Below, piece by piece: positions 31,801 to 52,304 of a stretch of DNA of 64,000 bases. The DNA is from Spizellomyces punctatus DAOM BR117 (lineage: Eukaryota). Location: assembly GCA_000182565.2 (NCBI GenBank), contig KQ257450.1; one strand, given 5' to 3'. The position numbers and the translations under genes are program-made. The notes beneath the pieces were generated by a model. The model ran no database searches, had not been told where the DNA came from, and saw only the letters and a program-made list of their open reading frames with translations. How positions within the stretch are numbered: the stretch's first letter is position 1; the number at the start of each line of letters is the position of its first letter.

Positions 31801-33264
31801 GCGAGGTGGACAGATGGGCAGAAAACCGGGCTGGATTACGTGATTCAGTTTATTGCCAAACTGTTGCATCCCTCGCAGTCGGAATCGGCGTCTATATTTG
31901 TTGGGGATTTGGTCACAAGATTGATTCAAAAGGTGGGCTTTGGATGGTTGAGGTTTCTGTGTGGAAACTTTTTAGCTGATCAAACAGTTATGGTAGGGCG
32001 GAAATGAGCTCACGCCGGTATTGCCCGAGCTTTTGACGGCTGTTGCACGGCGCTTACAGGCAGCCAAGACGTCATCCTTTATACAGGTACGAACTACTCA
32101 TTGTCAGGTAGGTGTAGGCACGTCCAACTCAGCCTGAATGCCTACCATTGTGCAGCAACTGGTGATGGTCTTCGCCCATCTCATCCTGAACCACCCGGAA
32201 ACCGTGATCGACTTTCTCAGCCAACTCGACCTTAATGGTAAAAACGGCCTAGAGCTGATCATTGAGCTGTGGTGTGAACATTTTGGTGATTTCCAGGGAT
32301 TTTATAGTATTAAAGTCAGGTGGGTGCTGCACCATCATTGGTCTCGTAGTTTGCCCCATGCATACGTAGTAATTGATGTCGTTCCTTTTCAGTGCTTTGG
32401 CAATGAGTAAGCTACTACTGAGTGGTGATACGCGGCTACAGGCTTTGCAGGTCAAGGGTGACGAGATTGTGGTGTCAAACAGTATGTGGGGAGATTTGAT
32501 AGAGTTGGAGGATCACGATACTGATTCTTTTGACCTCTTTTTGATGTGTAGAGATCATTACGCGTTCCATGACAAGACAACGTGAGAACAGTTATTTTTA
32601 TCAGCATGGAGTCATTGACACAGATTGTTAACTGTCTGTACGGTGTAAACAGGTCCAGCGCAATATAGTGTCATCCCGTTTCCAGCTAAAGCTATCAAGC
32701 TCTTGCTTGTTGAGCTACAGCATCAGACTGAGAGTCAGATGGGAAGGGTATCCCGACGGGGAATTCCGGACGATGAGGAGGAGACCACTGAGGGTGTGGA
32801 TTCTGACGAAGTAGGTTTTTGCTGTTTGATACATTTAGTTTTTTTTCTCTTAATGATGTATCTAGGATTGGGAGGATGTGGATCCCATCCAGAGTGACGA
32901 CTTTTTGGCTGGTGAGGCTGTCGTGCATGTCTATATCCTTTTTCAAGCACCTAACAAATTCAATGTATTCAGATTTGCTCAGTAAGGGCGGAGTCGTTGA
33001 CGTGGATGCAACCGACTATGAGGGAGCCGATGAAGAGCTTTGGAGTAATCCCATTTATCAAATGGATTTAAAGGTGTCGTTTCTGATTCTTTTTTATACC
33101 ATTTTACAAATACTCTTGCAATAACACACAAAAACATTCAACAGGCGTACCTAGCCGAATTCTTTCAAACCTCTGCAAGAGAAAACACGCACGGATTTTT
33201 GCAACTCTGCGACCGGTTTCTGAACGAAGCGGAAAAGGAACGGTTGAGAGGAATTGTAGGGTGA
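28820..33264 (+). CDS. IPO9: Importin-9 / Kap114 (HEAT repeats), many exons
   Basis: RQLAAVSLKNYVDTHW, IAHFDWPESWPDLF, VHGAMRVLAEF, PFLQGRALWF, ESASIFVGDLV, IITRSMT, PFPAKAIKLL, acidic loop. Confidence 0.92.
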
Positions 33265-33381
33265 AAATATATAATTTTTTTTGTATTTATGTTCTTTATT
33301 TTTTGAGAGATGCTATTGTGCAATTGGGGAGAATAGATTTTATGGCAAGTGTGTTGTTTTTTCGCAATTTGCATAATAACT

Positions 33382-34138
33382 TTACAAGAGACTTTCCAAC
33401 CCTTTAACCAACCTCTTTACGAAACGCGGACCCAAGAAAGCTTCAAGCGTATGCTGTTTCTCTAGAGTTGTTTTTGGTGGAGTGGGTGCGAGATAAACTG
33501 TCAACAGTTCAATGCATTTATGTCTGGAGATTTATCGCAATTGAAGCAAATAAAACCCGACAATGCATTTTACACAAAGGTAGAAAACTTACCGTAACCT
33601 TTCCTCCGTTCTCGAATCCACCAAGATGTGACATACTTTTTCTAAAGCTCCCTGTTCAAATACCTTAACAACCAAAAAAAGGTCACCAATCAACATTCAT
33701 CATCATCCCATATCTTTTTCAAAAAACTACAACATACCTCACACCCCTCACAATAATCCACCAAAAAAGCCTGCAAAGCCTCAAGGGCCTCCATCCCACA
33801 CTTGTTCTCAATACAATTCACAAGGGCATCTAGGACCCCTTTTCGCAACGCCATGGATTTCGTTGGAGGGTGTAGAATGAATAATGGGGTGAGGAGGGAG
33901 ATGTGGGGTGGAGAGTCGAGGTGCGTGAGTAGGGTTTGGAGGATTTGGGGGATGTGGGGTTTGAGGTGGGGTGGGAGGGTGGGTTGGGATGTAAAGAGGT
34001 GAGTTAGATGGGGGATCTATTTTAAATAATGTGTGTGTGTGTGCGTGAGGGGTAGGTGCAAAAGTAGAGTGATTTGGACTTTCTTACAGTGAGGTTTAGA
34101 GAGTTGGGATGGGATTGGGTGGTGGGTGTGTGGAGCAT
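33382..34138 (-). CDS. Septation initiation network Cdc14-like protein (S. pombe-type, not the phosphatase); absent from the ORF track
   Basis: Spliced product contains LFILHPPTK, ALEALQAFLVD, VFEQGALEKV, KCIELLTVYL and TTLEKQHTLEAFLG, matching remembered SIN Cdc14 motifs LHPPS / KxxEFLxFYL / TxEKQ. Confidence 0.6.
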
Positions 34139-34350
34139 GGTCGCTCTTGTTTCTTATACAAGTGCAGCTGAACAATCTTGAAAACGAGAGCGGAACGATT
34201 ACGTTGGACGCGTCAGTCTTCTTGACAATGCATCAAAAAACCTTGAGTTTACGACACTTTTTTTTTTTTTCTTGCCAATAAGATATATTTCGCAAACATA
34301 AAAGGAAGATATCCTTTATAAAAAATATAAACCAAACGAAAACCCAACAT

Positions 34351-37300
34351 CTATCCCAAAACCGACACCAAACCTCCAACCCGTCCCCGCCAACTCTCAA
34401 CCTCAACCACATCCCCCCCAACAGAAACAAGAGCATAAGCCTGATTCTTTAAACTCTCCTCAAAAACAATCTGATCCATACGAAATGCAACAAGAGCGTT
34501 ACCACCAAGTGCAAACGCATGGGCCCGGCAAATGGCGTACATTTCCACTAGGAAGGTGTGTGTGAAGCCTCCCATGCCTGTATTGCCCGTCCCGAGTTCA
34601 AAGACCATGGCGGCTTCTTTTACGAAATGGAGGGAGATGCGGCCTAGAAAGCGAGTGAGGCGGGTGTTGGGAATGTACCATAGGGGTGTAATGTCAATAA
34701 AAGGGTTGTCGGTAAGGGTAAGCGAGAGGTGGAGGGCGGTAGGTGTGCTTGGACGGGTGGGAGGGTCATTCACGGAGGGGGGTGTGCTGTGTGATGTGTG
34801 GGAAGAGGGGCGGTTCGGATCCGTATCGGTCTCCTGGTCGTCTTCAAGAGAAAACACCATACCGTCCTCGAGGGAATGCGTCGAGGACTGAGAGACGAGA
34901 GAGACCTTGGTCGGCGCCCGAGCAGGTCCAGGGACTTTTTTAAGCGAATCACCCAATGCAAAGCTCTCGTTCGATGCCTGGACATCGACGGGGTCACCTT
35001 GCTGAACAATCTGCCCAAGCGCAATCCCTGTCAGCGCAATCTGGATCTCATTGTCCTTGATGAGCTGGACATCGTAATTTAAACCTCCGACAATGCAAGG
35101 TTTGAAATAGGCCAATTGGAAGACCAGTTCCTGGTAAAGGTTTTTGAAAATATCAGCTAGTTGACGATTAGGGTGGTGAGACACCACACTAATGGCAGCG
35201 TGTTTGACAATGGACACCATTTGAATGTGGTAGAGGTTGTGAGGTTGAAAGAGGGTATCGGACTTAGGTGCCACGCCGGTATTACACATTTGGAAATCGT
35301 CTGGGAAACTCGGGTCCTGCATCAACACCAAATCTTCATCTTGTTCATCGTCGATTTGAACCACGACGCTACGATGTCGTCGAAATTCCTGCTCATCCTC
35401 TGAATCGCTGTCCGACTCGCTTCCGGAATCCGTCTCGCTTTTTGCAACTTGGTCCGACTCGCCAGCTTGTTGTGCACCACAATCATCATTCAAATCCAAC
35501 TGCGATAAAGCCTGTTCAATCATCTTGCGATTGCTTTCGCTTCGCAACATGATTTTTCGTTGAATCTCCAAAAGTTTTTTGTCCTCTTCGTCTACAACGT
35601 CCAAATTTCGAAAGACTTTCATGGCAGGCGGGGGTGGCAAGGCGCGAACAAAGACCGCCGTACCCGTCGCAACGGCCGTCATGAGCGACTCGCCCACACT
35701 ATACTGGATTTTCAATCCAAAGACAGCGTTGAGGCCATATATCCGGAGTTTGTACATTAATTGTCGGTGAATGTCGTACTGCGCGAACGGAATGGATTCA
35801 CTAACGACAGAAGGACGGGAGTCTCCGTGGGTTTTGCGGTACCGGCAGACTAGATATCAAGAGTCACAATAACGTCCAAAAACGATGCAGCACGCATATA
35901 GCACGCACCATGCGCTTCCAACAAAATTCCGTTCCCAACCGTATCCAATTCAGAAGGCGGTTCAATTGTCGTCAACAAGACTTCTGGAACATGTTTCTTT
36001 TTACATACACCACATTTCGCATACGACATGGGAAAGGGTGATTCTTCGCGTCTGTAGGTTATATGACAGGCTTGACAGCCTAAGAGTACCCGTCAGGTGT
36101 TGCACAATCAATCGGAAAGTTCCAAAAAACCGACCTTTGGCACGTTTGCGCTTCCGCTTCCGTCTCGCAAAAGCTTCTAAAAAGCTCTCACGATATTCGC
36201 TCCCACTAATGGACGTCCTATGGACAGGTGCACTTTGCGTAACCGATCCCACTGCCTCATCCCCTCTTGGCTCCCATCCAGTTACCGAATTCATCCTTGA
36301 AGAATGAGCAGTACCGGAAAAGGAATTCATAACCGACAGATCCAATATAGCTGCAGTACCACTACAATGCAATACAGCCAATTCATCACTGATGGACGTG
36401 TTTTCGCTGTACCCAATGACAAAAGGACACCCCAGCGCCCGCGCATGGGATTTTATTTCATCGCGAAGCTCTGTCCACCAGGCCTCGCGTATGTCCTTGG
36501 AGTCGTTTTCAATCACTTTGACGGATGTGGCGGATATGAGGCCACCAATGCCCAGGATGGCGCCAGTGGGAAAATTATGGAGGGTAAGTGTCATGTGTTC
36601 GGCGGATTTGTATCCCGTTGCTGCCGAGGCGACAAGGAGAGCAGAGGGTTGTTCTTCGAGAAACGAGGATCCGTTCTCAGAGAGCTCTTCAGGTGTCAGT
36701 GTCGCTTTGGCTGTTGTGGCCATTCCAGATGCGAGGGGGGAGACGGACGGAAGGTGTTCAGAAAAGGGGGTATTCAAAGGGGAGGCACCTGGAGTTTGCA
36801 TGGATGACCATGACTGTCCTCGGTCGAGAGATACTTGATCTGGCACGGAGAGGCGAACAGCGGTTCCAATCGCTCGAGCGGTAATGGCTCTCTCCTCGCT
36901 CTCTATATCAAAACACTGTTTAAACCCAACGACGGCATTACCGTTGAGTTCGAGCACTTTTTTGCCAAGCTGTCGACGTAATTGTCCGCTGAGGCGGTAC
37001 ATGACGCGTGTGCGCGACTCGTTTGATGTACGGGGAGTACGGAAATTATCGCTCCAGTGCTGCAAAATGTGTGTCAGTTTCTGGACATTCTAGAGGCGTA
37101 AGATGGTTGCCTTACATATTCCGGATCATCTTCATTGTCTAGCGCGGAAACGAATCCGAGAACAGCCACCACGTTGACATTGGGTGGTAGAGATGTCATG
37201 GTATAGAATTGCACACCCGCCGAACTATCTAATCGCAAGGACGCATGTCAGTTCTTGTACGAGTACGCCAGTACACTGGCGGACTTTTACCTTTAAAAGG

Positions 37301-38358: not shown

Positions 38359-38907
<549 letters not shown>

Positions 38908-39985: not shown

Positions 39986-40105
39986 NNNNNNNNNNNNNNN
40001 NNNNNNNNNNNNNNNNNNNNNNNNNNNNNNNNNNNNNNNNNNNNNNNNNNNNNNNNNNNNNNNNNNNNNNNNNNNNNNNNNNNNNNNNNNNNNNNNNNNN
40101 NNNNN
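39986..40105. other. Assembly gap (N run) within a roughly 3 kb region lacking a recognisable gene
   Basis: Run of N bases. Confidence 0.95.
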
Positions 40106-41970
40106 ATTCGCATAGGAGTGCATTGAGTTCCCCACTGTCTTTCATCTGAAGCACCTAACTCCTGCGAGATAAAAGGAGCGAATTTGTTGTCCGCGGCAGT
40201 TGCAGTCTCGCAGCCAGGTGCCATGACCTACACTCGACACATTGCATGCAAAAGTGTGCAACCGTCTTTGTGATTGTACTGAATGCATAGTCTTGGATGA
40301 TCAGCGTCTACTCCTGCAGCTTCCATCTCCGTATTTTGTTTCCGTTGACTTGCGCCAACAACTTGCTGTCTACAGCAGGGGACAGCTATACTGCCTTATC
40401 CCTATACACACACAGCAGGTAATCACCACCGGGTAGCGCTTCTTGATGGTCGATTTCTGAACGTTTGGTTGAAAGGCTTGGCCCCAACCTGTAACGAACT
40501 GAGGAAAGGATACATTTTTAGTAGTAACAAATGAACCATGTCCCCCAAGTATTGCTAATCAGGTACGTATGGGGCGAGTAGTTCACGTTGGAAACCAAAG
40601 ACTTTTCACCTCCCGGGATGAACTCTATGATCCAGGACGTTATAACCATCCTCGCCTCGCCCGGATGTCTTGCTGAGGTGCAATGGCGGTTGCACCTCTA
40701 TTCCGATGGATGAGTGTCCACCCCCCTTCCAATGGGAGAGAGCAGTCGGTCAGAGGCCATCTCCTCCAATTATTAGATGCATTCTAGGATTTAGCACATT
40801 ATTTCAACTACTAGCTGCAATCCAGCCCATCATCCGGCAAGTACTTTTTCCGGTAAGCTGAGCGATTGTAACTACTGGTGGTACTTCCGAAAACCTTTGC
40901 TTAAAGGCCCCGCCTACGGATACCATGCTCAAAATGTTATTCCTTATTGATGAATCCCCATCCACAGCTTCAAGATGTGAGCTTTGTCATGGAAATGTTC
41001 CATCATATCGAAGATTGACAAAGGCTTCTACCGAAGAGCTTCGTTATTTGCAGTATGCTGAACATGGCTTTCCACCACTGTAGTTGTGCATCGTGGCTTC
41101 TAAGCTTTTGAGGGTAGACTGCTGATAACTGCTGATACAGGTTGAGAGAGCCCAAGGAATGCAACTGAATATTTAACCAGCTTTTCAGTTATCATGGTGT
41201 ATCAACGCTTGTTATGCCTGAGGTGCAGAATTTGCCAAGCGAAGCGTAATGGTAAGTAGAACGACCACACAAGAGGCCGGGCGAACGTGGTCTCAATACA
41301 GGACAACGGGGGGACAGTAGGGAAGAGGTGGAATCCAAGACCACACGCCAACAAGTTGCTCGGTCGATGCCCAAAAAAACGAGACCAACTCTATACGGAC
41401 TCAAGAGCTCTCATTCCTCTTCTTGGTTTTCTCCATGGTCCCATCATCCCCCAGTGCGGTGACAATAATATACACATCACTTTGCACACTACAAGTAACA
41501 CATTTCAATCACCGTATCGTTTACACGCCCGATGTTACGGATATGCATGATATGCCTCTCACGTATTGCTCCGCACCCAGCAAGATACACTTTGAGTCTC
41601 TTGAAGCGTTCACTTTAAATATAATACATGTAGAGAGCACAAATGGTTTTCAGTTCGTGGCCCTTCACCGTACGCTATCCTGCCTCAACTAGAGTCGTTG
41701 GGATCCCATCAAATACATGATGCAAACGACGGAATAGAACTCTTTTCCACAGCAAACCTTCCTTCTACCTCCCCCCATCTACACTACTCTACATTGCTTT
41801 ACAAATATCTTCTGCTGCTGGTCCGCCAGGCAGCAACCTTCAACCTTGAAGGTCCCAAAAGAAACCAAACAAGCCATCCCTATAACCACACTAATGTGAC
41901 TCCAACCGTCCAAGACGTCGTTTGCGATCGTCGTCCTGCTGGCCATTTGCTTCTTGTTGACCAAAAGATC

Positions 41971-43092
41971 ATGACGATATACTCGGCAGCACCGGGAAAT
42001 GTAACGCCGCTCAAGTCACCCATCCCATCAATGCACTGGTCTCGCGTCCCAATGCGAGGGACACACATTCCCCCTCCTCTCCGCGCCCACACAACTACAG
42101 CCCTCCATTCCAAACTCTACGTATTCGGTGGGTGCGACGCCAAATCATGTTTCAACCAGCTCTGGGTATTCGATACGGAATCCTTATGGTGGACCCGGCC
42201 AGTGGTGAGGGGGTCTGTTCCGCGTACCGTGCGAGCGCATGCGGCATGTGTCATAGCGGACCGGTATATCGTTTATTTTGGCGGTGGGGACGGCCCGGTG
42301 TATTATGATGGAGTGTATGTGTTGGATACGGTTGAGATGGCTTGGCATACGCCGAGGGTCAGTGGGGTGGCGCCTTCTGCGAGGCGGGCGCATACAATGT
42401 GGGTTTGGGAGGGGGATGTATATGTGTATGCGGGTGGGGATGGTGTGAGGGCTTTGAATGATGTGTTTGTATTGAGGATGGGCAAGAGTGGGTTTGGGGA
42501 TTCAAAGCGGGGGGATCCGAGAGGTTTGAATGATGCGGGGCCAGATGCGAGACATGGGGAGACTCTAGAAGACAGTCTTGTTGTTGAATGGCAAGTGGTG
42601 GAAACGCGGGGACCTGTCCCATCTCATCGGGGTTACCACACCTCGACACGCATCGGCCACACACCTCATGTCCTCGTGTACGGCGGGTCAGACGGCCACG
42701 AATGTTTTTCCGACGTGTCCCTCCTCGACATGCAAACCCTCACCTGGAAATCCATCTCCCTCGACCGAGCCTTCCCGCGCCTCTCCCACACTGCGACCCA
42801 AGTGGGATCCTACCTCTTTGTTCTAGGCGGACACGACGGAACACGATACGGCAACGAAGCACTATTGTTGAATCTTGTGACCATGAATTGGGAGACGAGG
42901 AATGTGTGTGGGAGTGGGCCTGAAGGAAGGGGGTATCATTCTGCATGTTTGGTGGATTCGCGGGTATGGGTGTTTGGAGGGTATGATGGGACGAGAGTGT
43001 ATGGGGATATGTGGGTGCTCGAGTTGAGTGCGAGTGCGTATTTGCCTCAGATTACTGCTTTTGAGGTGGGATGTGGAGATGACGTCCTGTGA
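41971..43092 (+). CDS. Kelch-repeat beta-propeller protein, intronless
   Basis: Six repeats of RxH..VFGG..W (LRAHT..VFGG, VRAHA..FGGG, RRAHT..AGGD, RGYHT..YGGS, RLSHT..LGGH, RGYHS..FGGY). Confidence 0.92.
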   Translation: MTIYSAAPGNVTPLKSPIPSMHWSRVPMRGTHIPPPLRAHTTTALHSKLYVFGGCDAKSCFNQLWVFDTESLWWTRPVVRGSVPRTVRAHAACVIADRYIVYFGGGDGPVYYDGVYVLDTVEMAWHTPRVSGVAPSARRAHTMWVWEGDVYVYAGGDGVRALNDVFVLRMGKSGFGDSKRGDPRGLNDAGPDARHGETLEDSLVVEWQVVETRGPVPSHRGYHTSTRIGHTPHVLVYGGSDGHECFSDVSLLDMQTLTWKSISLDRAFPRLSHTATQVGSYLFVLGGHDGTRYGNEALLLNLVTMNWETRNVCGSGPEGRGYHSACLVDSRVWVFGGYDGTRVYGDMWVLELSASAYLPQITAFEVGCGDDVL

Positions 43093-43500
43093 TGTGCAGT
43101 GTGCAATGACGTCCGGTGAGGTGTGGTATCCACATACATGCAGAACATGTGCACAGGCACAAAATGCGCACACAAGTGTAAGTGATTGGGATGTATCTAT
43201 AGAATAGAGAATGGTTTCCTCGAGTTCACAGTCGGCAAGGGATTCATCCTCCCTGATAGCACAACTTCCCTTCCTTCTTTCTCCATATACAATAAAGGAT
43301 CAGACACATCTCTAGGACGAATGTCTAATCTTGTAGTTGCGTTCATGGAGGAGGTGTGCAAAGGCAACGGAATAGCAAGTCATTGGCAGTGGAAAGAAAA
43401 GTCGGAGATGCAAAGAGTCCAAGCCCCATTAGATGACTGTGCCACACACAAATGCTCGCTTGCTGCAAGTTGCTCTTGCTTTGTTTCCATCCAGACGATC

Positions 43501-46500
43501 ATGTTGGGAGGCTCGCAGGTATTTTTATTCGTCATTACACTACATGACACACCTTTTCACATTTGCTTTGTTACGTTCAGGATGCCCCTGCGCACTCTCA
43601 TCAACGCGCACAAAACGAACGCTTACGCCTATTACTCGCCCGCGCAAGCATCTACTCTTCTTTCCTCGCAGACAACCTCGCACAACGACAACTCTCATGT
43701 GCCCAGGGCAACCGCATGTCCCTCTCTACATCTTCAGAGAATGTCGTAGCAGAATTCTCTGACCCTGACCCAGAACCTCCTGCCCGCGTCACACGGCGAA
43801 AGGGTGCCAGACCAAAGAGGCATCCACGCGTTCAACCAGATCGACCCGACAAGGTGCAAGAGGATCGCGTGCATGAGGTGCTCAGTGAGGGGCGGACAAA
43901 GAGACAACCGAGTCTTGTCACGGGTGGTGAAATGAGAGAGTATCAGTTGGTGGGCATGGAATGGTTGATTAGTTTGTATGAGAATGGGTTGAGTGGGATC
44001 CTTGCCGATGAAATGGGTTTGGGAAAGGTATGTTGCCGATCCACGCCAAAGGGTGGGATTTTTACAAAAGAAAGAGGAGTGGATTGCCATTCACGTCGAG
44101 CATTTGGGAGCCAATGTGGTGATAACCAACGAGGTGTGATACCGTACTTTTTTATTAAGAAAAGAGATGGGCCGGGGATCCGCGCGTTAGCCTGGCGATC
44201 GCCAATGGTGAAAGGATGACTATAGACTTTTTTAGCGATCAAGCATCTCCTTGACGTCCAGCATGGATCACAGTGCTGATTAGAATTACAGAGGAATGCC
44301 GAGCTAGGGATCCGAAGCGATCATGTATGATTGAATGCAAACGCTCAACGTGACCTTATGCAAACAGAGAGGGATGGCGCCGTTTCGAGGGTTATGCCGA
44401 TCGGGATCTAAAGTAATGGCTTTCGCCTGCATTATCGTTTGATCATTCCTCTCTTAGTGTCTCCCTCGACTCGGCAGCACGCCCTCTCAATTCACTTATC
44501 CCCACTCTAACGTACATATCCCCCCGACACATACAGACCCTTCAATGTATAGCGTTCCTCGCCCACCTCTACGAAGTCGGCACAAAGGGCCCCTTCCTCA
44601 TTGTCGCCCCTCTCTCCACCATCACCAACTGGGTCGCAGAGTTTAAGCATTGGGCGCCTAGTATTCCCGTCGTGTTGTATCATGGGGATAAAGTCGAGAG
44701 AGGGTGGTTGAGGAAGAACAAATTTGGGGTTGGGGTTGTTGTTACGACTTTTGAGGTTGTTTTGAGGGATCGAACATGGCTTCAGGTGGGTTATTTTTTT
44801 GAACACTGCTGTGAGCGGTGGGTGGGCCGGTGGGGAATCGTCGCGAGGGGAAAAATAAAGAAACGCTTGAAAAAAGCATCAAACGGAAATGAGCATGGGC
44901 CGGTGGGTGAGGAACAGAGTGCTCTTGCGGTAGAGGGGCATTGGGAGAAAGCAGTACCGCGTATCTGCACGATTGTGGTATTGTGTGCGCATACAATAGT
45001 GCTGAGTGGGGAGTGCACTATACCCGTCTTGCGACACAGTCTAATACTCACATGTTGATTAGAACTACACGTGGACATACATTATCATTGACGAAGGACA
45101 CCGACTCAAAAACCTAGACTGCAAACTCATTCGGGAATTGAAGCGGTATCCGGCTGCCAATCGGTTACTACTCACTGGAACACCGTTACAGGTAAACTTG
45201 TCCGCGTACCATTGTGCAAAAGAAGAAGTGTACAAACAACGCAGCCATCTGGTTTTTTCCTAGAACAATTTAGAGGAACTTTGGTCCCTACTTAATTTCG
45301 TCATGCCTGAAGTCTTTCATGATCGGTCATTGTTTACGTCCCTATTTTCCACCCCTACCGACACACCCGACACACCCAACAAAGACACACCCGACACGGA
45401 CACACCCACAGAGAATACAACCGACACAACAAGCCTCCCAACCCTCCACGCCATCCTAAAACCCTTTTTGCTCCGTCGCATCAAATCCGAAGTTGACCTC
45501 TCCATCCCACCTAAACGCGAGTGGATCATTTACTGCCCGTTAACGACCATGCAAAAAGAATTGTATGATGCGGTTCGGGAGGGGAGGTTACGTGAAAAGG
45601 TTGTGGAGCTGTTGATGGGGCGTGATGATCTTGGTATGTACTGGTGTTGCTTGTTTGTTTTATGCGGCGTGATGGGACTCGAAAATTTGAATGTGTTTTT
45701 CTTGTGTTTGTATAGATGAGAAAGACTTTGTGGATTTGTCAGATGATGTGGATCAGGATGTCGTTTTAGCGGCGGACCTTGATTTTGAGCAGACTGATGG
45801 TACGTGTCCGCGGTTTGTGTGGATTTGTGTGCATGCGTTTTTTTTAATGTGATCGTGTAGGTGTACGGCGGGTAGTGAAACGGTTTCGAGAAGAAGATGA
45901 GGATGCGGATATCGAAAAAGCGCATGCCGTTCGTGTGTATTTCTATTGTGGTTTCTTTTTTTTTGAGTATGCTGATGATGGATATGGTTCTAGAGGTTAC
46001 AGTCAAGTCCCAAAAGCTCCAAAGCCCCATCATGCAATTCCGTAAAGTATGTAACCACCCCTTCCTATTCTTTGGTCACCAAGACGAGACTCCAGTTCCC
46101 ACCAGCACCAGCACCTACCTCCCCTTCGACCCAACCCACTCCACTCAGCCCCTCATTACCCTCTCTGGTAAATTCCTCACCCTCGACCGCCTCCTCCCTC
46201 ACCTCCTCCCCACCCACAAAATCCTCCTCTTTTCCCAAATGACACGCACACTTTCCCTCCTCTCGACATACCTCTCACTCCGTCATATCCCCCATTGCAG
46301 GCTAGACGGCTCCACACCTCTCGAAGTCCGTCAAACTGAAATCCACCGTTTCACCCATACAGATACCCCAATCTTTTTATTATCGACGCGCGCGGGAGGG
46401 TTAGGACTCAACCTCACTGCAGCGGATACAGTCATCTTGTTTGATTCCGACTGGAACCCGCAATGTGACCTTCAAGCCATGGACCGTGTCCACCGGATTG

Positions 46501-46894
46501 GACAAACGAAACATGTGTTGGTTTTACGGTTTATTTGTAAAGGAACCGTTGAGGAACGGGTTGTTGAGTGTGCCAATCGTAAAAGGAAATTGGAACGGGT
46601 GGTTGTTCATGAACGTATGTTATGTTTGTGCTTTTGTGTTTTTCAGACGCTTTGTATAACCTTTATTATTTTGTAGGGCTGTTCAAGGGCACACATCAAG
46701 ATTTTGTGTCGAATACGAGTGTACCGGATTCAGAGGTGTTGGGGATTTTAAGGGAGCGGGTTGTGGTTGATGCTGTTGGGGAGGGCTTGGTGACGGACGA
46801 GGAGGTTCAGAGGGTTTTGTGTCGGGATTTCAGTCAGAAAGCAACGTCCAGTGGGGATGGAGGGCATGATGGGGGGAGGGTGAGGATGGTCTAA
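43501..46894 (+). CDS. HELLS: HELLS/LSH/DDM1 (Irc5)-like SNF2 chromatin remodeler, multi-exon
   Basis: [16 protein letters not shown] (HELLS N-terminus), [87 protein letters not shown]. Confidence 0.9.
45356..45430 (+). repeat. Coding GACACACCC-type micro-repeat (DTP repeats) in the HELLS-like gene
   Basis: [20 protein letters not shown]. Confidence 0.7.
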
Positions 46895-47121
46895 GTGTTT
46901 TTTCTTGGTGGTATTGTTTTTATGTACTTTGCTTATTGGTGTATCGGTCACTTTTGCTGTTGCTCTTTTGGCGTACTTGTAAAACAAAATGAATGTGCAA
47001 GTCTAAACAGTTTTATTCGTACTCGTTTCTATCAAACATCTATGTGCTGTGCTAGTGACGTTGCGCATAGTGTGGCCGTCTTCTAAAAAACTCTACAGCG
47101 TTCCCAGCGGGCGCACCACTC

Positions 47122-47607
47122 TCACCACCCACCTTGCTCACGCACAACTCGCACGACCTCTTCCAACCCTACCCGATCCTCCTCAGTAAATCCCCCAACA
47201 TCCCTACAATCCACATCCAAAACCCCCACCAAAACCCCGTCAACAACAACCGGGACAACAATCTCACTCTGACTGGCGGAATCACATGCAATATGTCCCG
47301 GAAATGCATGCACGTCGGGAACAACCACTGTTGCCTTTTCTCTCGCCGCTTTACCGCACACACCCTTTGAGAATGGGATTAACGTACATGCGACTTGCCC
47401 GTGAAAAGGGCCTAGGTAGAGTGTATCGGGTTTTGCGGCCTTGTGTGTGCCCGTCAGATAAAAACCGACCCAGTTGATGTTGCGGGTGGGAGGGTAGGCA
47501 TGGTAGAGGAGAGCAGCGGTGTTGGCGAGGTTGGAGGTAATGGGGAGGGAAGGGTCGAGGAGGGAGACGAGTTGGGTAACGAGGTTTGTGTAGAATGGAG
47601 TGGTCAT
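47122..47607 (-). CDS. Free methionine-R-sulfoxide reductase (GAF domain, fRMsr/MsrC), intronless
   Basis: NLANTAALL, NWVGFYL, LGPFHGQVAC, GVCG, DVHAFPGHIACDSASQSEIVVP, GVLDVD. Confidence 0.94.
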   Translation of the reverse strand: MTTPFYTNLVTQLVSLLDPSLPITSNLANTAALLYHAYPPTRNINWVGFYLTGTHKAAKPDTLYLGPFHGQVACTLIPFSKGVCGKAAREKATVVVPDVHAFPGHIACDSASQSEIVVPVVVDGVLVGVLDVDCRDVGGFTEEDRVGLEEVVRVVREQGGW

Positions 47608-47841
47608 GATGAAAAAGTTACGGACGTTGTTACTGGTAGGCGAAAACAAGTCTCTGGTCAACTCTGTAAATGACAATTGCTTGACGAAGAGGATTGGGGG
47701 AAAGCAACGTTGGAAAGAAAATGTTTGAAATGAGGAATCTTGAGCTTTTTATAAACTGTTTGCGTGCGGTGGGCAACAAATCGCGCGAGATCTTGACTGG
47801 ACTCGGTAGATCACATTTTGGGCCATCAACCATCTTGCACC

Positions 47842-50595
47842 ATGTCGTCGTCGTCGTCGTCGTCTTCGTCCATTGCATCACTCCTCACACCCCTCACGGC
47901 AAACCTCCACATTCCACCCACCCTCCACCACCTCAAAACATTCATTCCATCAAGCACCCGCGGAGACCTCACCCGAATCTTTCACGTAAACTCTCAATGA
48001 ATTGCATTGCATGGTTTTTGCGTTATGTTCTCATTTCTTCAAAAAAAACTAGTAGTGGTGCATATCCCACTACGCCCGCACAAACACCACAGACGCATTC
48101 TCGACATGCATCCCAAAAAACCTAGTTCAAACGCATCCCGCCGTCAACGAGATTTATGTATTGACATTATCGGCCAGTCTTGCTCACGAGGGACTCACAA
48201 AAGTATTCTTCAAGGTAACGTTTTTACACTTTTGCCATCTACAGTTTTGATCATAAGGTTTATTTGGGAAAAAAAGCTCCTCGTAGAAGGCCCTCCGAAA
48301 TTCATTTGGCTCGTACCTTACGCACTCTCAACAACCGAGACGTTGATTGCATTTCATACGTACATGATGGAATCCTACAACAAACGAAATACTATTTTGG
48401 AAAACCTTGATAAAGCATTGTAAGTTGCCCCTTCCTCCAACGCTTGCATACATGAATATGCAAGACGGTACACTAACAATGTTGCGTGTAGTGTTTTGGG
48501 ACCACTGGATACGCTGTTAAATCATATATTCAGTTACCTCCTGACGAGGTGGTCGCCAAAAGTTTTGGAGAGTTTGAAAGAGTGTTTGGATGTGTATGCG
48601 GCTAGGAGGGGTAGGTTCACCGTTGTAAAATGCTTTTTTTTTCTGCTCAATGCGTTTGTCAAAATAGATGAAATGTTAATGGATATTTTGATTTTGTAGA
48701 AAAGTATGTGGTGGGGTACTTGGTGACGCTCACGGTGATTTGCCCCACGTTTCTTGAGCGTATGTGTTTTGTCATGTTGTTTGCTTTCATATCTGATGGT
48801 CGTTCCTAATGTTGTCGCTGATGGTTCAGAATTTGGAAATGAATTGGTGGAGATGGTTGGGATGTATGTTGAAGGTATGTGCGGGGGTGGGCAAGTAAAG
48901 GGTGCTGGGTAAGTTTTTAGTGTGTCTCCAAAAAGGTGTTTGGTTGTGATGAATCTCGTCTTTTCTCACTATTCCGTATTCATCAATATCCGCCATACTA
49001 CGTTGAAGTCCACCCGCATTCCTCGACGACATCCTCCCCCCCTACATCCACTACCTCCTCACCAAACACCCAACCCTCACACCTCCCATCACTCTCCTTC
49101 TCTCCCGAGCATCTAATTCCCCCTCTTCCTCACCCCTGGCCCAAACCCTCCTCTACAACACTCTCCAAACCATTCTAAAAGACCTAACCCAAAACGGCGC
49201 ATCCCCCCTTCTCCCCGCTTTTCGCACCCATTTCACCCGTCTAACCCAATCAGCATCCCAAAACTATCTCTGCGAAGCATTATGGATCCTGTGCATCATA
49301 ACATTTGGGCACGAAGCGATTATACGGGACGCTCACCTCCTTACACCCTCCCTGTTGGGATTACTTGATGAGACAAACCTCTTGAAGTATGTATTCCTGA
49401 CATTGGATTTAAGACCTATTTTACTCGCATTTAAACTTTTTGCTGACCTTTAAACAGTCAGACAATAACGTCGGTTCTTGTCTCACTTGACACATACCCT
49501 CCCAAAACACGTACACACATTCTCGAATCCCTTCGCCGCTTTACGCACGTCCTACGTCCCAATTACCGTTTACTTGAACCACATGTTCGCGACCCAGTTA
49601 CGCGACACGCGGCATTGGCATTGTGGGTCGGTGGGCCGGCGGAGGTGATTGAGACGGTGTTGGGCATTTGGATGCAAGTACGTGAGGAACGAGGGATTTG
49701 TGAAGAAGTTGTAAAGAGTATGGAGGGTGAGAAAGTTGTGTACGGGGTTTTGGAGTGGGTTCGACGGGCGGAGTTGACGAGTGAGGAGTGGAGTGTGTTG
49801 GCGGGTTTGGCAGGTATGCTCATCAGGTTTTTCTTTACCACTCTATATAAAACTGTTTAATTCATCGCACTTTTATTGACAAGGTCCATCGCATCGACCG
49901 CTCTTGGCTCGCCTTTTTTCCAAATCCCTCACACATCACCCTCCGACGCCCCTTGGATGCTACACCCTCCCAGCCATGCCAACCACCCCTCGCGACAAGA
50001 CCCTCGTCCACATTTTTCAAACACATAGAGGATTATGGGGCGTATTGGACGTAATTGGCCAGGGTACGGTCATCATGAATCACAAACCAGACGTTATACT
50101 GAAATTCTTGTTTTGTCGTAGACTATGAAGCGACTGTATACGCAGTAGACGTGTTTCGGCCCCTCCTGGCATACAGCATCGCATTCTGGTCTCAATCCCA
50201 TCGAAGTCCTTCTCAACACCCCTACGAGTTCGACAGCGCAGTTCGAGTGATCACATTACTGAGCAAGGTAATTTTTCATTTCATTCTATTCGTCATGATA
50301 TTCGTAAACGATGCTCGTTACGATCACCTTCTCACGAGACATTCCTTTACAGTCCCAGATCCTGCCTGCTCCACTTGCACATGCTCATCTGATGGTGACG
50401 GATCTTTCACCCAAGGACCTGACAAGCATCCTCGGTATCTGCTGGGACATCTTCGCGCTCTACACCATCCCACCCCCTCCAAAGCCCCTCTCACCGTCCG
50501 ACATACCCAACTGGAAACAACACTTGAAAACAGTGCAAGGCATCGTGAAGCGCCATGTACACCTGACGGCACCCTACATGGGCCTGTTTTTCTGA
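47842..50595 (+). CDS. Integrator complex subunit 5-like protein, multi-exon
   Basis: C-terminal exons RDKTLVHIFQTHRGLWGVLDVIG..VFRPLLAYSIAFW..PYEFDSAVRVITLL|SQILPAPL..LSPKDLTSILGICWD..HLKTVQGIVKRHV..GLFF are colinear with the remembered INTS5 C-terminus. Confidence 0.6.
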
Positions 50596-50598
50596 GCG

Positions 50599-52130
50599 TT
50601 AATGGGATGTCTTTTTGGGAAGGATTTTGGTCACCCATCGAATTAAATCCAGAGTAATCCCAACTGTGACGAAAATGCCTAGATTTTGTGTCAATCATTG
50701 AAGAGTGTCATATCAATGGCAAAAGCACGTACCTCCAATAATTCCACAAAGTCTCGTTAAGAAATGGAGAAAGCCCTGCCGAGACTCTGTAATCCGTACC
50801 AAAATCGGCTCAATCTCGTACTTTATAAATACACCTACTCAAATCATTCAACAACTCTCCCATATGCACTAGAAACCAAACAGGTTGCGCTGACCTGGTA
50901 ACCCTCCTTGCTTATTATCCACCGTCAAGGACCGCGTATAATCCGTCACGGCATATTGACTCGTCAACAGCGCCCGTTTCCCAAACGCTCGATTTCGGTC
51001 AATGTAGACGGTTGGGACCTGCCGAAAACACGTTAGCGTATATGTATCACCAAATAAACAATATCGTACGTACAATGGCAATAAAATATTGAAACATGTC
51101 CATTTCTATAATACGTTAGTTGAGTTACTAATGTGGAATGCATCCGTGTACGTACTCGTTGACGCCATTTCGAGGGTCCGGTCCAAAGGATTTCGTAAAC
51201 CGGGGTAATTGGGTCCAAACGACAAGCGATCAATGCGGTGTGTGAAGTTCATGGCTATCAGAAAAAGATGCTCGTTACGATGTGACATGACGTATTGTAC
51301 GTTTATTTGCGTTTAGGTGCGTCTGGAGGTACCTTCATGTGGTGTATGTCCGCCAAAATACCCGTGTCCCAATGCAGTGAAATGTAGCATTCCCGAGACT
51401 TTATTGACGTTAATGGATCCTGTTATACGGCAGGCTTCTGTTTCCTCTCCTACTGCGAATGTGAGTATACATTTGGATATTTGTCATCTCTGAGATTCAC
51501 CACCTCGCGTTGTGGATCCCCCATCATTCTCCCGATTCCGCATCGCTTGCCCGACGAGTTTGTGAATATCCATTTTGGGCTTATCGGACGTGTACCTTGT
51601 GTTGGTGGTTTGTCGGTTAGAGATTTCGTCAAGACGATTTGTGACTTTCCTCTATTCTCTTACCCTAACCGCCTCGTCCCCCGCGTTGCGAAAACTACCT
51701 GTGTAATAGATATAAGTACCAATATAAAATACTATACCAATACAACTAACCAACCTTTTCAACATTTAATGACTTTGAGACGGGTAACGACACCCCGGCC
51801 ACATCCAACACATCTGCCCTCAAATCTAGAGGCCATTCCAATGACGTTAGCACCAGCCAAAGCTACACCAACCCATACTAGACATAACTCACAAGAACAC
51901 GGCATTGCAATCGTTAAATCCATATTGATCTGCAAAGCATGCTCAGCACTTCTCGTCTCATCCACCACAAACTCATAATCTTGTCGAATGTCTCTGTACG
52001 CTTTGAATTCGCTAACGGCGAGATAGGCGAGTAAACCAGCTACGAGGAGAGTGACGAGACCGCCGGTATGCGTCGCATGTTGGATATTGCGTTGGACTTT
52101 TGGAAATGCGTCAAGGTTCGAGAGGCGCAT
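50599..52130 (-). CDS. ER-Golgi intermediate compartment protein ERGIC2/Erv41-like, multi-exon
   Basis: LDAFPKV..GGLVTL, LQINMDLTIAMPC, ACRITGSINVNKVSGMLHFTALGHGY, NFTHRIDRLSFG, NPLD, VPTVY, QYAVT, FLTRLCGIIG|GIFV. Confidence 0.92.
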
Positions 52131-52304
52131 GGCAGCATGACGATGGAAAGCAAAGAAATCATCAGTTGGGCAACTCCTCCAGACCAAGAGTCACGTGAGC
52201 AAGACAGGTTGTAGCTTTAATTTAATTAATGAGTTGCTGAGTCATACAGCAGGAAGTGGTCGCTTTGGGGCTTTTTGAACCATTGGAGATCTTGTTTAAT
52301 TTTC

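What the first reader, a model, noticed from the sequence alone, without database searches (positions are those of the whole stretch)
41700..50020. Kilobase-scale oscillation of C-rich and G-rich blocks that overrides gene structure
Seen, with boundaries estimated by eye: the + strand alternates C-rich and G/T-rich blocks. C 41700-42170, G 42190-42610, C 42615-42860, G 42870-43130, C 43540-43850, G 43860-44030, C 44440-44630, G 44640-45020, C 45330-45545, GT 45560-46000, C 46010-46380, GT 46510-46980, C 47085-47370, G 47410-47640, C 47830-48140, GT 48480-48950, C 48960-49360, G 49610-49820, C 49880-50020. Switches are sharp and occur in mid-exon (inside the intronless kelch and GAF genes). The pattern covers introns and synonymous sites and runs through both + and - strand genes. 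It changes amino-acid usage in conserved proteins: H/P/T/L-rich in C blocks ([16 protein letters not shown]) and G/V/E-rich in G blocks (VVVDGVLVGVLDVD). The first 33 kb show it only weakly. Inference: a regional strand-asymmetric mutation or repair process with fixed switch points, such as repair or resection patches, chromatin phasing or R-loops. Selection for G4 or fold-back structure is an alternative. I do not know of a described mechanism at this scale.
Basis: partly seen in the sequence, partly recalled or inferred. Interest (0 to 1): 0.8.

Follow-up and report, generated by a model that had tools for sequence, protein, structure and literature searches.

The report
Regular 0.9-kb strand-skew waves across genes
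In a chytrid fungus, about 10 kb of ordinary genes flips roughly every 450 bases between C-rich and G-rich DNA on the same strand, even at silent codon positions and in introns, which points to a regularly spaced strand-specific mutation or repair process rather than to protein needs.

Summary
All 19 blocks have the stated sign (binomial p 1e-3 to 7e-20). GC skew in 200-bp windows swings from +0.67 to -0.77. The switches are regularly spaced: about 0.9 kb, CV 0.16-0.19, with an FFT peak 108x the mean against at most 9.5x in codon shuffles. Contigs from four public runs reproduce the sequence, so it is not an assembly artefact.

The skew is strongest at 4-fold sites (G .49/C .09 flipping to C .58/G .04) and is present in introns. 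C and A fall together on one strand, and G-rich blocks are compositional mirror images of C-rich blocks.

The pattern does not override gene structure. Genes start C-rich and end G-rich on the sense strand. C-to-G switches lie inside open frames, and G-to-C resets lie in intergenic DNA or introns.

It is derived in this lineage. It is an extreme, multi-cycle variant of the known fungal 5'-C/3'-G gene skew.

The mechanism is inferred. My preferred reading is strand-specific single-strand exposure or repair around fixed sites in the non-coding gaps (about 0.3). No G4 or fold-back signal was found.

The parts
41700..50030 (.). Main oscillation domain: 9 full cycles of C/A-rich (M) then G/T-rich (K) sequence on the + strand, mean period about 0.9 kb
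33242..34815 (.). K 33242-33371, M 33372-33446, K 33447-33546, M 33547-33853, K 33854-34141, M 34293-34508, K 34653-34815. Shorter period, about 0.7 kb
41703..41913 (.). M block (C .34, G .11), upstream of the kelch ATG. The weaker C-rich state continues to about 42170
42263..42601 (.). K block (G .42, C .12) inside the kelch exon
42615..42860 (.). Weaker C-rich block inside the kelch exon (GC skew -0.27 overall, -0.64 at codon position 3)
42863..43129 (.). K block at the kelch 3' end, running past the stop codon
43540..43850 (.). Weaker C-rich block at the 5' end of the SNF2 gene (GC skew -0.33)
43922..44035 (.). K block
44478..44629 (.). M block. It starts in the last 60 nt of the 509-nt intron and runs into the exon
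44630..44835 (.). K block: rest of that exon plus the first 50 nt of the next intron
45340..45557 (.). M block
45558..45998 (.). K block spanning three short introns and the short exons between them
45999..46373 (.). M block (C .43, G .10), starting 5 nt after a 3' splice site. Encodes [16 protein letters not shown]
46514..46971 (.). K block: exon, intron 46615-46676, last exon, and 77 nt beyond the stop codon
47114..47269 (.). M block on the + strand, which is the G-rich 3' part of the minus-strand GAF gene (VVVDGVLVGVLDVD)
47473..47640 (.). K block on the + strand, which is the C-rich 5' part of the minus-strand GAF gene
47876..47997 (.). M block at the 5' end of gene D
48562..48964 (.). K block over three exons and introns of gene D. 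It ends inside intron 48909-49008
48965..49270 (.). M block (C .46, G .07), starting inside the same intron
49615..49836 (.). K block, ending at the inferred intron 49814-49883
49837..50027 (.). M block
51556..51980 (.). K 51556-51643 then M 51644-51980 in the minus-strand ERGIC-domain gene. The switch lies in intron 51596-51663
41971..43092 (+). Intronless kelch-repeat gene (373 aa) holding two cycles
43581..46894 (+). SNF2-family helicase gene holding four cycles. Exons: 43581-44027, 44537-44785, 45063-45191, 45264-45633, 45716-45799, 45861-45932, 45994-46614, 46677-46894. A short first exon lies upstream. The label 'DDM1/Lsh-like' is my recollection, not a tool result
47125..47607 (-). Intronless GAF-domain gene holding one cycle
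47842..50655 (+). Gene D, no Pfam family in the two exon translations tested. At least 9 introns (8 confirmed by spliced contigs), about three cycles. Its 3' end is not G-rich

Best explanation
What it is (confidence about 0.9). This is a real, evolved, lineage-specific compositional pattern. The sequence alternates between two mirror-image states. In the K state the + strand has lost C and A and gained G and T. The M state is the reverse complement of K. The states alternate as a regular array with a period of about 0.9 kb. The array is in register with genes. K-to-M resets lie in intergenic DNA and in some introns. M-to-K switches lie inside coding exons. Every unit therefore reads C-rich then G-rich on the sense strand, whichever strand the gene is on. 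The pattern acts on DNA irrespective of coding, and it drags codon choice and amino-acid usage along with it.

How it most likely arises (inferred, confidence about 0.3; the confidence figure of this field refers to this mechanism). I propose recurrent strand-specific single-strand exposure on either side of fixed sites in the non-coding gaps. The best candidates are DNA breaks followed by 5'-to-3' resection, meiotic or mitotic. That geometry leaves the + strand single-stranded to the left of a break and the - strand single-stranded to the right. Damage, translesion synthesis or biased repair of the exposed strand removes C and A (C>T, C>G, A>G). Over long times at stable sites, this writes K to the left and M to the right of each site. 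The tract length sets the block size of about 450 bp.

Shown: the pattern, its site classes, its symmetry, its register with genes and its derived state. Inferred: single-strand exposure, breaks, and their location.
For: Real sequence. Contigs of four public runs from four coded organisms and samples match the blocks with 0-2 differing letters per piece. Examples: X1 42028-43299, X2 44948-45916 (unspliced), X9 45994-46317.

Not protein selection. At 4-fold sites the K state has G .49, T .28, A .13, C .09 (n=268). The M state has C .58, A .23, T .15, G .04 (n=246). Unskewed sequence has A .30, C .32, G .22, T .16. In introns the K state has C .12, A .16, T .47 (n=466) and the M state has G .06, C .36 (n=138). 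Kelch codon position 3 has skew +0.71 and +0.79 in K and -0.64 in M.

Strand symmetry independent of transcription direction. K blocks (3641 nt) have A .199, C .097, G .369, T .335. Reverse-complemented M blocks (2990 nt) have A .211, C .096, G .382, T .311. The minus-strand GAF gene shows the same pattern.

C and A fall together, and GC and AT skews are inversely correlated: -0.39 at 44-48 kb and -0.52 at 32-36 kb. McLean and Tirosh note that this inverse relation is the expected mark of C-to-T deamination, and that it is absent from their yeasts (PMC3315797, Discussion).

Geometry. [quoted passage not shown] They implicate translesion synthesis (REV1 for C>G; A>G) (PMC7615360, passages seen). 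Placed at the K-to-M resets, this predicts the observed order.

The resets sit in non-coding gaps: three intergenic gaps, and 6 of 7 intragenic resets overlap introns against 2 of 10 M-to-K switches (Fisher p = 0.015). Open frames centre on M-to-K switches window-wide (0 of 2000 shifted controls reach the observed value).

No base context. CpG observed/expected is 0.99, TpC 1.01 and CpA 1.14 in pooled blocks. This argues against methyl-CpG decay or a motif-specific deaminase.

Derived state. The SNF2 protein and a close relative (P0121, 82-98% identical per aligned segment) share block-wise shifts in amino-acid usage that 7-16 distant orthologues lack. For example, the score is -0.51 against +0.27 (sd 0.13) at 45339, and +0.49 against -0.06 (sd 0.12) at 44675.
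Against: No breaks, resection or recombination were measured. The location of the proposed sites is inferred only from the sign of the skew.

A point source at the resets predicts a sawtooth: a sharp reset and then a gradual decay. The two switch types are equally sharp (median width 114 bp for K-to-M and 150 bp for M-to-K, Mann-Whitney p = 0.97; the skewness of increments is about -0.1 in the main domain and +0.5 to +0.65 in the 33-35 kb cluster). Some M-to-K switches are abrupt (44629, 45548).

One reset (42613) lies in the middle of the kelch exon with no intron.

Only about 5 of 22 introns are resets. Most short introns sit inside a block with no change of sign.

Introns in the K state gain T but not G (G .25 against .24), so the neutral-site spectra of the two states are not perfect mirrors. 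The M-state intron sample is small (n=138).

A 5-14-fold G:C ratio at silent sites requires the asymmetric process to dominate all other mutation. No known break-associated process has been shown to do that.

Sex has not, to my recollection, been observed in these chytrids.

The regular 0.9-kb spacing is not predicted by the break model itself.
Confidence: 0.3

Rival explanations
1. Transcription-coupled asymmetry with self-reinforcement. The sense-G-rich parts form R-loops with the sense transcript, which exposes the sense strand. The sense-C-rich parts do the same with antisense transcripts. Each state promotes further loss of C and A from its exposed strand. Domains therefore sharpen into a two-state pattern, seeded by C/T-rich 5' regions and 3' splice-site tracts and by G/T-rich 5' splice sites and 3' ends.
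For: Units begin C-rich and end G-rich on the sense strand of kelch, the SNF2 gene and the GAF gene, and gene D begins C-rich. This matches the gene-level fungal pattern that McLean and Tirosh attribute to phases of transcription (PMC3315797). Both switch types are equally sharp, as positive feedback would give. Resets fall at introns and gene ends. The region is transcribed and spliced.
Against: The two states are near-exact compositional mirror images although one is at the 5' end and the other at the 3' end of transcripts. A directional process gives no reason for that. The model needs antisense transcription confined to the 5' halves of units, for which I have no data. Most introns do not reset the pattern. 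G-run and G4 motifs are not enriched beyond composition.
Confidence: 0.25
2. A chromatin-array signature. A positioned, dyad-symmetric chromatin unit larger than a nucleosome (about five nucleosomes, or a gene-scale unit bounded by nucleosome-depleted gaps) imposes strand-polar damage or repair. This would be analogous to the palindromic nucleosomal signatures of yeasts.
For: Palindromic strand asymmetry that is seen in coding and non-coding DNA and that shapes codon and amino-acid usage is published for nucleosomal DNA of four yeasts (PMC4422121; abstract and Results read). Here the symmetry is the same and the spacing is regular (CV 0.16-0.19; broken-stick P <= 0.0016 even with a 400-bp minimum spacing).
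Against: The period is about six times a nucleosome, and no 150-200-bp component stands out in the spectrum (top periods 900, 1000, 818, 450 bp). The amplitude is visible at single loci rather than only in averages of tens of thousands of nucleosomes. I know of no 0.9-kb chromatin unit.
Confidence: 0.12
3. Selection on the nucleic acid itself. Local depletion of G or of C keeps the RNA or single-stranded DNA unstructured. Alternatively it tunes polymerase speed (the C-avoidance idea of McLean and Tirosh), or it aids recognition of exons.
For: A block lacking G or lacking C cannot form G-C pairs with itself. McLean and Tirosh propose an adaptive reading for the gene-level skew (PMC3315797). The phase is tied to open frames.
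Against: The pattern covers introns, sequence past stop codons and sequence upstream of start codons. It is strong in about 12 kb and nearly absent in 44 kb of similar genes in the same window. Distant orthologues do not share it. Predicted folding energies of five units equal those of local shuffles (z from -1.2 to +0.6). G4 motifs number 4 against 4.65 +/- 1.9 expected. Only 15 of 22 exon ends before a 5' splice site are G-skewed, and 11 of 22 exon starts after a 3' splice site are C-skewed.
Confidence: 0.1
4. Replication-type skew. The M-to-K switches would be origin-like sites where the + strand to the right is the lagging-strand template, as in bacterial chromosomes or human skew N-domains.
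For: The sign convention fits (G and T rich to the right of an upward jump). This rests on my knowledge of bacterial and human replication skews, not on a call.
Against: Known replication skews span 10 kb to megabases, against 0.45-kb half-periods here. The upward switches lie inside coding exons.
Confidence: 0.03
5. Artefact of sequencing or assembly, or hypermutation of a repeat (RIP-like, or editing copied back into DNA).
For: Two scaffold gaps lie in the window (20329-20428, 39986-40105).
Against: Four runs from 2011, 2020, 2024 and 2025 give contigs identical or nearly identical over the blocks. Open frames of 373 aa and 729 codons stay intact. G+C is not lowered (0.47 in blocks against 0.476 outside). 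There is no CpA or TpC context. There are no repeats beyond short low-complexity matches.
Confidence: 0.01

Closest known systems
[quoted passage not shown]
   Same: The coding strand is C-biased at the 5' end and G-biased at the 3' end. The skew reaches 4-fold sites, promoters and 3' UTRs. It shifts amino-acid usage. Spizellomyces punctatus, a chytrid of the order that the window's kelch protein points to, is in their data set.
   Different: Theirs is one gradient per gene, seen mainly as a species average (a significant 5'/3' change in 7.5-33% of genes). AT skew there is flat and positively correlated with GC skew. Here there are 1-4 full cycles per gene at a regular 0.9 kb. Skew reaches about +/-0.6 at single loci. 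AT skew flips with the opposite sign. The effect is concentrated in two clusters, 33.2-34.8 kb and 41.7-52 kb.
Strand-asymmetric mutagenesis flanking meiotic double-strand-break hotspots (Hinch et al. 2023, PMC7615360)
   Same: C and A are the bases lost from one strand on one side, and G and T on the other side. The sign changes at a point. The scale is set by single-stranded tracts (passages). The composition here shows the same pairing of bases.
   Different: That work counts new mutations at short-lived PRDM9 hotspots with 1-2-kb flanks. The passages I read report no equilibrium compositional skew. Here there is a saturated compositional state with 0.2-0.45-kb flanks, no break data, and no sawtooth shape.
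Species-specific palindromic nucleosomal signatures (Quintales et al. 2015, PMC4422121)
   Same: A mirror-symmetric strand asymmetry of bases is present in coding and non-coding DNA. It imposes a periodic codon and amino-acid distribution along proteins.
   Different: The period there is one nucleosome (150 bp), and the signal is seen in aggregate profiles of about 38,000 nucleosomes, strongest for A/T. Here the period is 0.9 kb, the signal is strongest for G/C, and it is visible by eye at one locus.
Replication-associated skew domains (bacterial chromosomes, human N-domains); recalled, not read here
   Same: Keto (G+T) excess on one strand that changes sign at fixed points.
   Different: The scale is 10 to 1000 times larger, and the switch points are origins and termini rather than exon interiors and introns.

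Membership tests
Fungal intragenic 5'-C / 3'-G GC skew (PMC3315797) | Coding strand C-biased at the 5' end and G-biased at the 3' end of genes | tested here: met
   Met for kelch, the SNF2 gene and the GAF gene. Gene D starts C-rich but does not end G-rich.
Fungal intragenic 5'-C / 3'-G GC skew (PMC3315797) | Skew present at 4-fold degenerate sites and beyond the coding region | tested here: met
   4-fold sites have G .49/C .09 in K against C .58/G .04 in M. Blocks extend 77 nt past the SNF2 stop codon and about 270 nt upstream of the kelch ATG.
Fungal intragenic 5'-C / 3'-G GC skew (PMC3315797) | A single gradient per gene (C-biased start, intermediate middle, G-biased end) | tested here: not met
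   Two cycles in kelch, four in the SNF2 gene, about three in gene D. Spacing is 902-926 bp.
Fungal intragenic 5'-C / 3'-G GC skew (PMC3315797) | AT skew roughly uniform along genes and positively correlated with GC skew | tested here: not met
   The correlation of 100-bp GC and AT skew is -0.21 to -0.52 in the four affected 4-kb bins. AT skew is -0.26 to -0.31 in the three GT blocks.
Break-flank strand-asymmetric mutagenesis (PMC7615360) | C>N and A>N on the forward strand on one side, and the complement on the other side | tested here: inconclusive
   The composition fits (C and A are depleted together, and the states are mirror images). Composition is not a mutation spectrum, however. The 31 amino-acid differences to the close relative could not be polarised.
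Break-flank strand-asymmetric mutagenesis (PMC7615360) | Sign change centred on mapped break sites | not testable with these tools
   No break, ssDNA or recombination data are available. No genome is held.
Break-flank strand-asymmetric mutagenesis (PMC7615360) | Effect greatest near the break and decaying with distance | tested here: not met
   K-to-M and M-to-K transitions are equally sharp (median 114 against 150 bp, p = 0.97).
Nucleosomal signature (PMC4422121) | Palindromic strand asymmetry of base composition | tested here: met
   K and reverse-complemented M blocks differ by at most 0.024 in any base frequency.
Nucleosomal signature (PMC4422121) | Period of one nucleosome, centred on dyads | tested here: not met
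   The period is 900 bp with no 150-200-bp peak among the top eight. Dyad positions are unknown.
RIP-like or deaminase hypermutation | Loss of G+C, a preferred dinucleotide context, stop codons, and repeated target sequence | tested here: not met
   G+C is 0.47 in blocks against 0.476 outside. CpA observed/expected is 1.14, TpC 1.01 and CpG 0.99. Frames are intact. There are no repeats.
   G4 motifs number 4 against 4.65 +/- 1.9. Runs of four or more G number 69 against 88 +/- 7.6. Fold z-scores are -1.2 to +0.6. The 25 longest of 36 inverted-repeat pairs shown are 16-34-nt arms, only I5 lies within one unit, and all are composition-driven.

The most novel reading that the evidence does not exclude
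The blocks are the accumulated footprint of an evolutionarily stable, regularly spaced (about 0.9 kb) array of DNA-break or single-strand-exposure sites in the gaps between coding segments. If so, sites of recombination initiation or repair can be read directly from base composition in this lineage. The same process, at lower intensity, would then be the unexplained cause of the 5'-C/3'-G skew of fungal genes in general. It may also favour intron presence or growth at those sites: within the SNF2 gene and gene D, the three longest introns (509, 277 and 100 nt) all lie at resets.
Probability: 0.2. Interest if true: 0.85.

Novelty: new variant of a known kind. Interest (0 to 1): 0.62.

Why it matters
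Silent sites in one exon flip from about 50% G to about 58% C every 450 bases. This means that a strand-specific process outweighs all other mutational input and codon preference here. It is strong enough to rewrite conserved helicase and kelch proteins.

The pattern is regular, mirror-symmetric and locked to gene structure. It therefore offers a rare natural record of where one DNA strand is repeatedly exposed or repaired.

If the cause is break- or R-loop-linked, it would turn a long-standing puzzle into something testable at single loci in a transformable chytrid. That puzzle is why fungal genes are C-rich at the start and G-rich at the end.

It also matters in practice. Such regions violate the stationarity assumed by codon models, gene finders and dN/dS tests.

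Tried and rejected
Whole-genome test. No genome is held for this window, so genome-wide frequency, links to chromosome position and comparison with recombination could not be examined.

DNA of relatives. The one metagenome scan returned 18 loci at only 30-52% protein identity. They served as controls but not for polarising substitutions or testing conservation of phase.

Sequencing runs. No RNA holder is listed on record. Nothing about expression level is claimed from depth.

Polarising the 31 amino-acid differences between the window and P0121 with distant orthologues. The sites were too few and too variable, and no direction emerged.

Trinucleotide ratios against reverse complements. These were confounded by flanking composition and were not used.

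Sawtooth test. Negative, although the 46-50 kb part looks like a ramp by eye.

Per-intron reset. Rejected, because most of the 22 introns lie inside a block.

Repeats or inverted repeats as the cause. Rejected.

G4 and specific fold-back. Rejected.

Methyl-CpG decay, APOBEC-like or RIP-like context. Rejected.

Literature. Eight searches were run. Six looked for a kilobase-scale intragenic skew oscillation in chytrids or other fungi and found none. One search looked for strand asymmetry at recombination hotspots and found PMC7615360. A recollection that Tilletiaria anomala shows something similar found no support (0 papers). Supplementary files, for example the per-species figures of PMC3315797, were not seen and might show the chytrid profile.

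Full report
ORGANISM AND GENES

The window has 47% G+C and short GT..AG introns. Its kelch protein is closest to proteins of Spizellomycetales chytrids. The best named hit is Phlyctochytrium arcticum at 59% identity, followed by Thoreauomyces, Borealophlyctis, Gaertneriomyces, Fimicolochytrium, Geranomyces and Powellomyces (1021 proteins with E <= 0.001 among 3217 candidates).

The stretch in question holds four genes:
- an intronless kelch gene (41971-43092, +);
- an SNF2-family helicase gene with eight mapped coding exons (43581-46894, +). Pfam gives SNF2-rel_dom and Helicase_C. 'DDM1/Lsh-like' is my recollection;
- an intronless GAF-domain gene (47125-47607, -);
- a gene without Pfam family, gene D (47842-50655, +).

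An ERGIC-domain gene on the minus strand follows. The exon models rest on a tblastn alignment to a close relative's protein (P0121) and on spliced contigs of public runs.

GC skew in 200-bp windows runs from +0.67 to -0.77.

A three-state HMM finds G/T-rich 'K' blocks (C .03-.12) and C/A-rich 'M' blocks (G .06-.12) of 75-458 bp. They cover 1.8% of the first 33 kb and none of the last 11 kb. Eighteen eukaryote-like metagenome loci carrying the same kelch family have 0-23% coverage.

The oscillation is regular:
- autocorrelation peaks at 900 and 1800 bp (0.45 and 0.39);
- the Fourier peak at 900 bp is 108 times the mean power, against at most 9.5 in 200 codon shuffles;
- M-to-K switches are spaced 926 +/- 173 bp and K-to-M switches 902 +/- 143 bp;
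- the coefficient of variation is 0.16-0.19, and a broken-stick model reaches this with P <= 0.0016 even when a 400-bp minimum spacing is imposed.

IT IS NOT AN ARTEFACT

Contigs from four public runs were laid on the region. The runs carry four coded organisms and samples, dated 2011, 2020, 2024 and 2025. The contigs lie on the blocks with 0-2 differing letters per piece.

One run gives unspliced contigs across three introns (X2, 44948-45916). Three runs give contigs that skip GT..AG introns, so they derive from spliced RNA whatever the record says. The best holder may be the sample the assembly came from, but the others are separate.

WHAT KIND OF SITES CARRY THE SKEW

In the + strand genes, 4-fold degenerate sites read as follows:
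- K blocks: G .49, T .28, A .13, C .09;
- M blocks: C .58, A .23, T .15, G .04;
- unskewed sequence: A .30, C .32, G .22, T .16.

Intron sites, excluding six bases at each end, read C .12, A .16, T .47 in K and G .06, C .36 in M. In kelch, the skew at codon position 3 (+0.71, +0.79, -0.64) exceeds that at positions 1 and 2. The minus-strand GAF gene behaves the same way.

Blocks run past stop codons and upstream of start codons. So the cause acts on DNA, or on fixation of DNA changes, and not through protein function.

Proteins are carried along. In the SNF2 protein, a score of G-rich against C-rich codon families departs from 7-16 distant orthologues by 4-6 standard deviations in several blocks. 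It always departs in the direction of the local DNA skew. The shifts are shared with the close relative P0121. Kelch shows the same in its first K block. The state is therefore derived in this lineage and older than the split from P0121's organism.

SYMMETRY AND SPECTRUM

Pooled K blocks and reverse-complemented M blocks have nearly the same composition: A .199/.211, C .097/.096, G .369/.382, T .335/.311. G+C is unchanged relative to the rest of the window (.47 against .476).

C and A fall together and G and T rise together. GC and AT skews are therefore inversely correlated (-0.21 to -0.52 in the affected bins). There is no dinucleotide context (CpG 0.99, TpC 1.01, CpA 1.14 observed/expected).

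This rules out methyl-CpG decay and motif-specific deaminases of the APOBEC or RIP type. It also sets the pattern apart from the yeast skews of McLean and Tirosh, where AT skew is flat and positively correlated with GC skew (PMC3315797, Results part 1 and Discussion read).

REGISTER WITH GENES

The 'M then K' order is unchanged by reverse complementation, so gene strand cannot matter. What matters is where the switches lie.

Kelch, the SNF2 gene and the GAF gene each begin with an M block and end with a K block in + coordinates. That is C-rich at the sense 5' end and G-rich at the sense 3' end for both orientations. Gene D begins C-rich, but its 3' end is not G-rich.

Across the whole window I took 67 non-overlapping open frames of at least 110 aa as an orientation-free proxy for long exons. 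They show + strand skew rising from left to right (mean +0.206, 46 of 67 positive). None of 2000 circularly shifted controls reached that value. Outside the strong clusters the effect is weaker but still present (+0.143, 36 of 55, 0 of 2000).

Within genes of known structure, K-to-M resets overlap introns in 6 of 7 cases and M-to-K switches in 2 of 10 (Fisher p = 0.015). Introns make up 34% of the SNF2 gene span and 24% of the gene D span. Wide transitions overlap introns more easily, so this is suggestive rather than strong.

The exception is a reset in the middle of the kelch exon (about 42613). It lies next to a G-rich loop of about 25-35 residues that most relatives lack or replace with a shorter T/P/Q/S-rich loop.

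Introns as such do not reset the pattern. Of 22 introns, only about five separate a G-rich exon end from a C-rich exon start. Most short introns sit inside a block and share its skew.

The title claim that the oscillation overrides gene structure is therefore wrong. It overrides coding constraints, but it is in phase with gene and open-frame boundaries.

G4 motifs in pooled K-oriented blocks number 4 against 4.65 +/- 1.9 in composition-preserving shuffles. Runs of four or more G are fewer than expected (69 against 88 +/- 7.6).

Minimum free energies of five M+K units equal those of 60-nt local shuffles (z from -1.2 to +0.6). Direct and inverted repeats are only short, composition-driven matches.

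MECHANISM

The data require a process with these properties. It is strand-specific. It is symmetric about fixed points. It is independent of base context. It removes C and A from one strand. It acts on neutral sites. It is strong enough to give G:C ratios of 5-14 at silent sites.

The published process with this base pairing and geometry is mutagenesis of the single-stranded tails left by resection at double-strand breaks. [quoted passage not shown] They implicate translesion polymerases (REV1 for C>G; A>G) (PMC7615360, passages seen).

Placing recurrent breaks at the K-to-M resets reproduces the order of states. Those resets are the intergenic gaps and some introns, which are plausible nucleosome-depleted sites. 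I prefer this reading, at about 0.3.

Four observations count against it:
- both kinds of switch are equally sharp, so there is no sawtooth;
- one reset is in an exon;
- introns in K blocks gain T but not G;
- the model does not explain the regular spacing.

A strand-dependent bias in heteroduplex repair around the same sites would give the same geometry and could be stronger than mutation. This is my inference.

The main rival (0.25) is a transcription-linked, self-reinforcing exposure such as R-loops on sense-G-rich parts and on antisense-G-rich parts. It explains sharp walls and the link to transcript ends. It does not explain the mirror symmetry of states that sit at opposite ends of transcripts.

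A supra-nucleosomal chromatin signature (0.12) shares the symmetry and the periodic effect on proteins with the yeast nucleosomal signatures (PMC4422121; abstract and Results read), but not the period.

Selection on RNA or DNA structure (0.1), replication skew (0.03) and artefact (0.01) are unlikely, for the reasons given with each rival.

NOVELTY

The gene-level 5'-C/3'-G skew of unicellular fungi is known, including its reach into 4-fold sites and amino-acid usage, and Spizellomyces punctatus is in that data set (PMC3315797).

I found the following described nowhere in six full-text searches:
- several full cycles inside single genes;
- a regular 0.9-kb array running through four genes;
- near-saturated skew at single loci;
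- the inverse AT skew;
- the concentration in two clusters (33.2-34.8 kb and 41.7-52 kb).

I file it as a new variant of a known kind. One locus without its genome cannot show how general it is. That, and the lack of any direct evidence on mechanism, keeps the interest score at 0.62.

Noticed in passing
window 33242-34815: A second cluster of seven alternating K/M blocks with a shorter period (autocorrelation peak near 700 bp). It covers an unannotated minus-strand open frame (33690-34016, no Pfam hit) and the 3' end of a C2CD5-like gene (YbjQ-like domains). The rest of that long gene (34.8-37.1 kb) is hardly skewed.
   Followed up: partly
window 45360-45427: A 15-nt imperfect tandem repeat (four copies at 69-100% identity) encodes a T/D/P-rich stretch inside a C-rich block of the SNF2 gene. 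The close relative P0121 is five residues shorter here, so the repeat varies in length between relatives.
   Followed up: partly
window 42466-42600: The kelch protein has a G/D/R-rich loop about 25-35 residues longer than in most relatives. In relatives the loop is short and T/P/Q/S-rich. It lies just before the only skew reset found in the middle of an exon. Whether it is a former intron was not tested.
   Followed up: no
window 46865: Run X9 reads G where the window has C. This turns His into Asp, which is the residue of the relative P0121 at that position. The site is polymorphic among close strains.
   Followed up: no
window 40200-52200 (run X1): Run X1 is listed as 'DNA?', but its contigs skip at least 15 GT..AG or CT..AC introns, so it behaves as spliced RNA or cDNA. 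One contig runs from 46995 to 50677 across the GAF gene and gene D.
   Followed up: no
window 47845-47871: Gene D opens with nine serine codons in a (TCG)n run directly after the ATG.
   Followed up: no
window 38403-38699: An Atg8-family open frame (Pfam ATG8, E 1.7e-19) lies between the two skewed clusters, in a stretch with little skew.
   Followed up: no
window 20329-20428 and 39986-40105: Two runs of N (100 and 120 bases) mark scaffold gaps. The second lies 1.6 kb upstream of the main skewed domain.
   Followed up: no
L014 1-181 and 1537-1770; L017 1-596: Two metagenome contigs with kelch relatives (43-49% identity) also carry adjacent K and M blocks (block coverage 0.23 and 0.11). Milder forms may therefore exist in other uncultured eukaryotes.
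   Followed up: no
window 44028-44536, 44786-45062, 48909-49008: Within the SNF2 gene and gene D, the three longest introns (509, 277 and 100 nt, against 58-89 nt for the other 13) all lie at G-to-C resets of the skew.
   Followed up: partly
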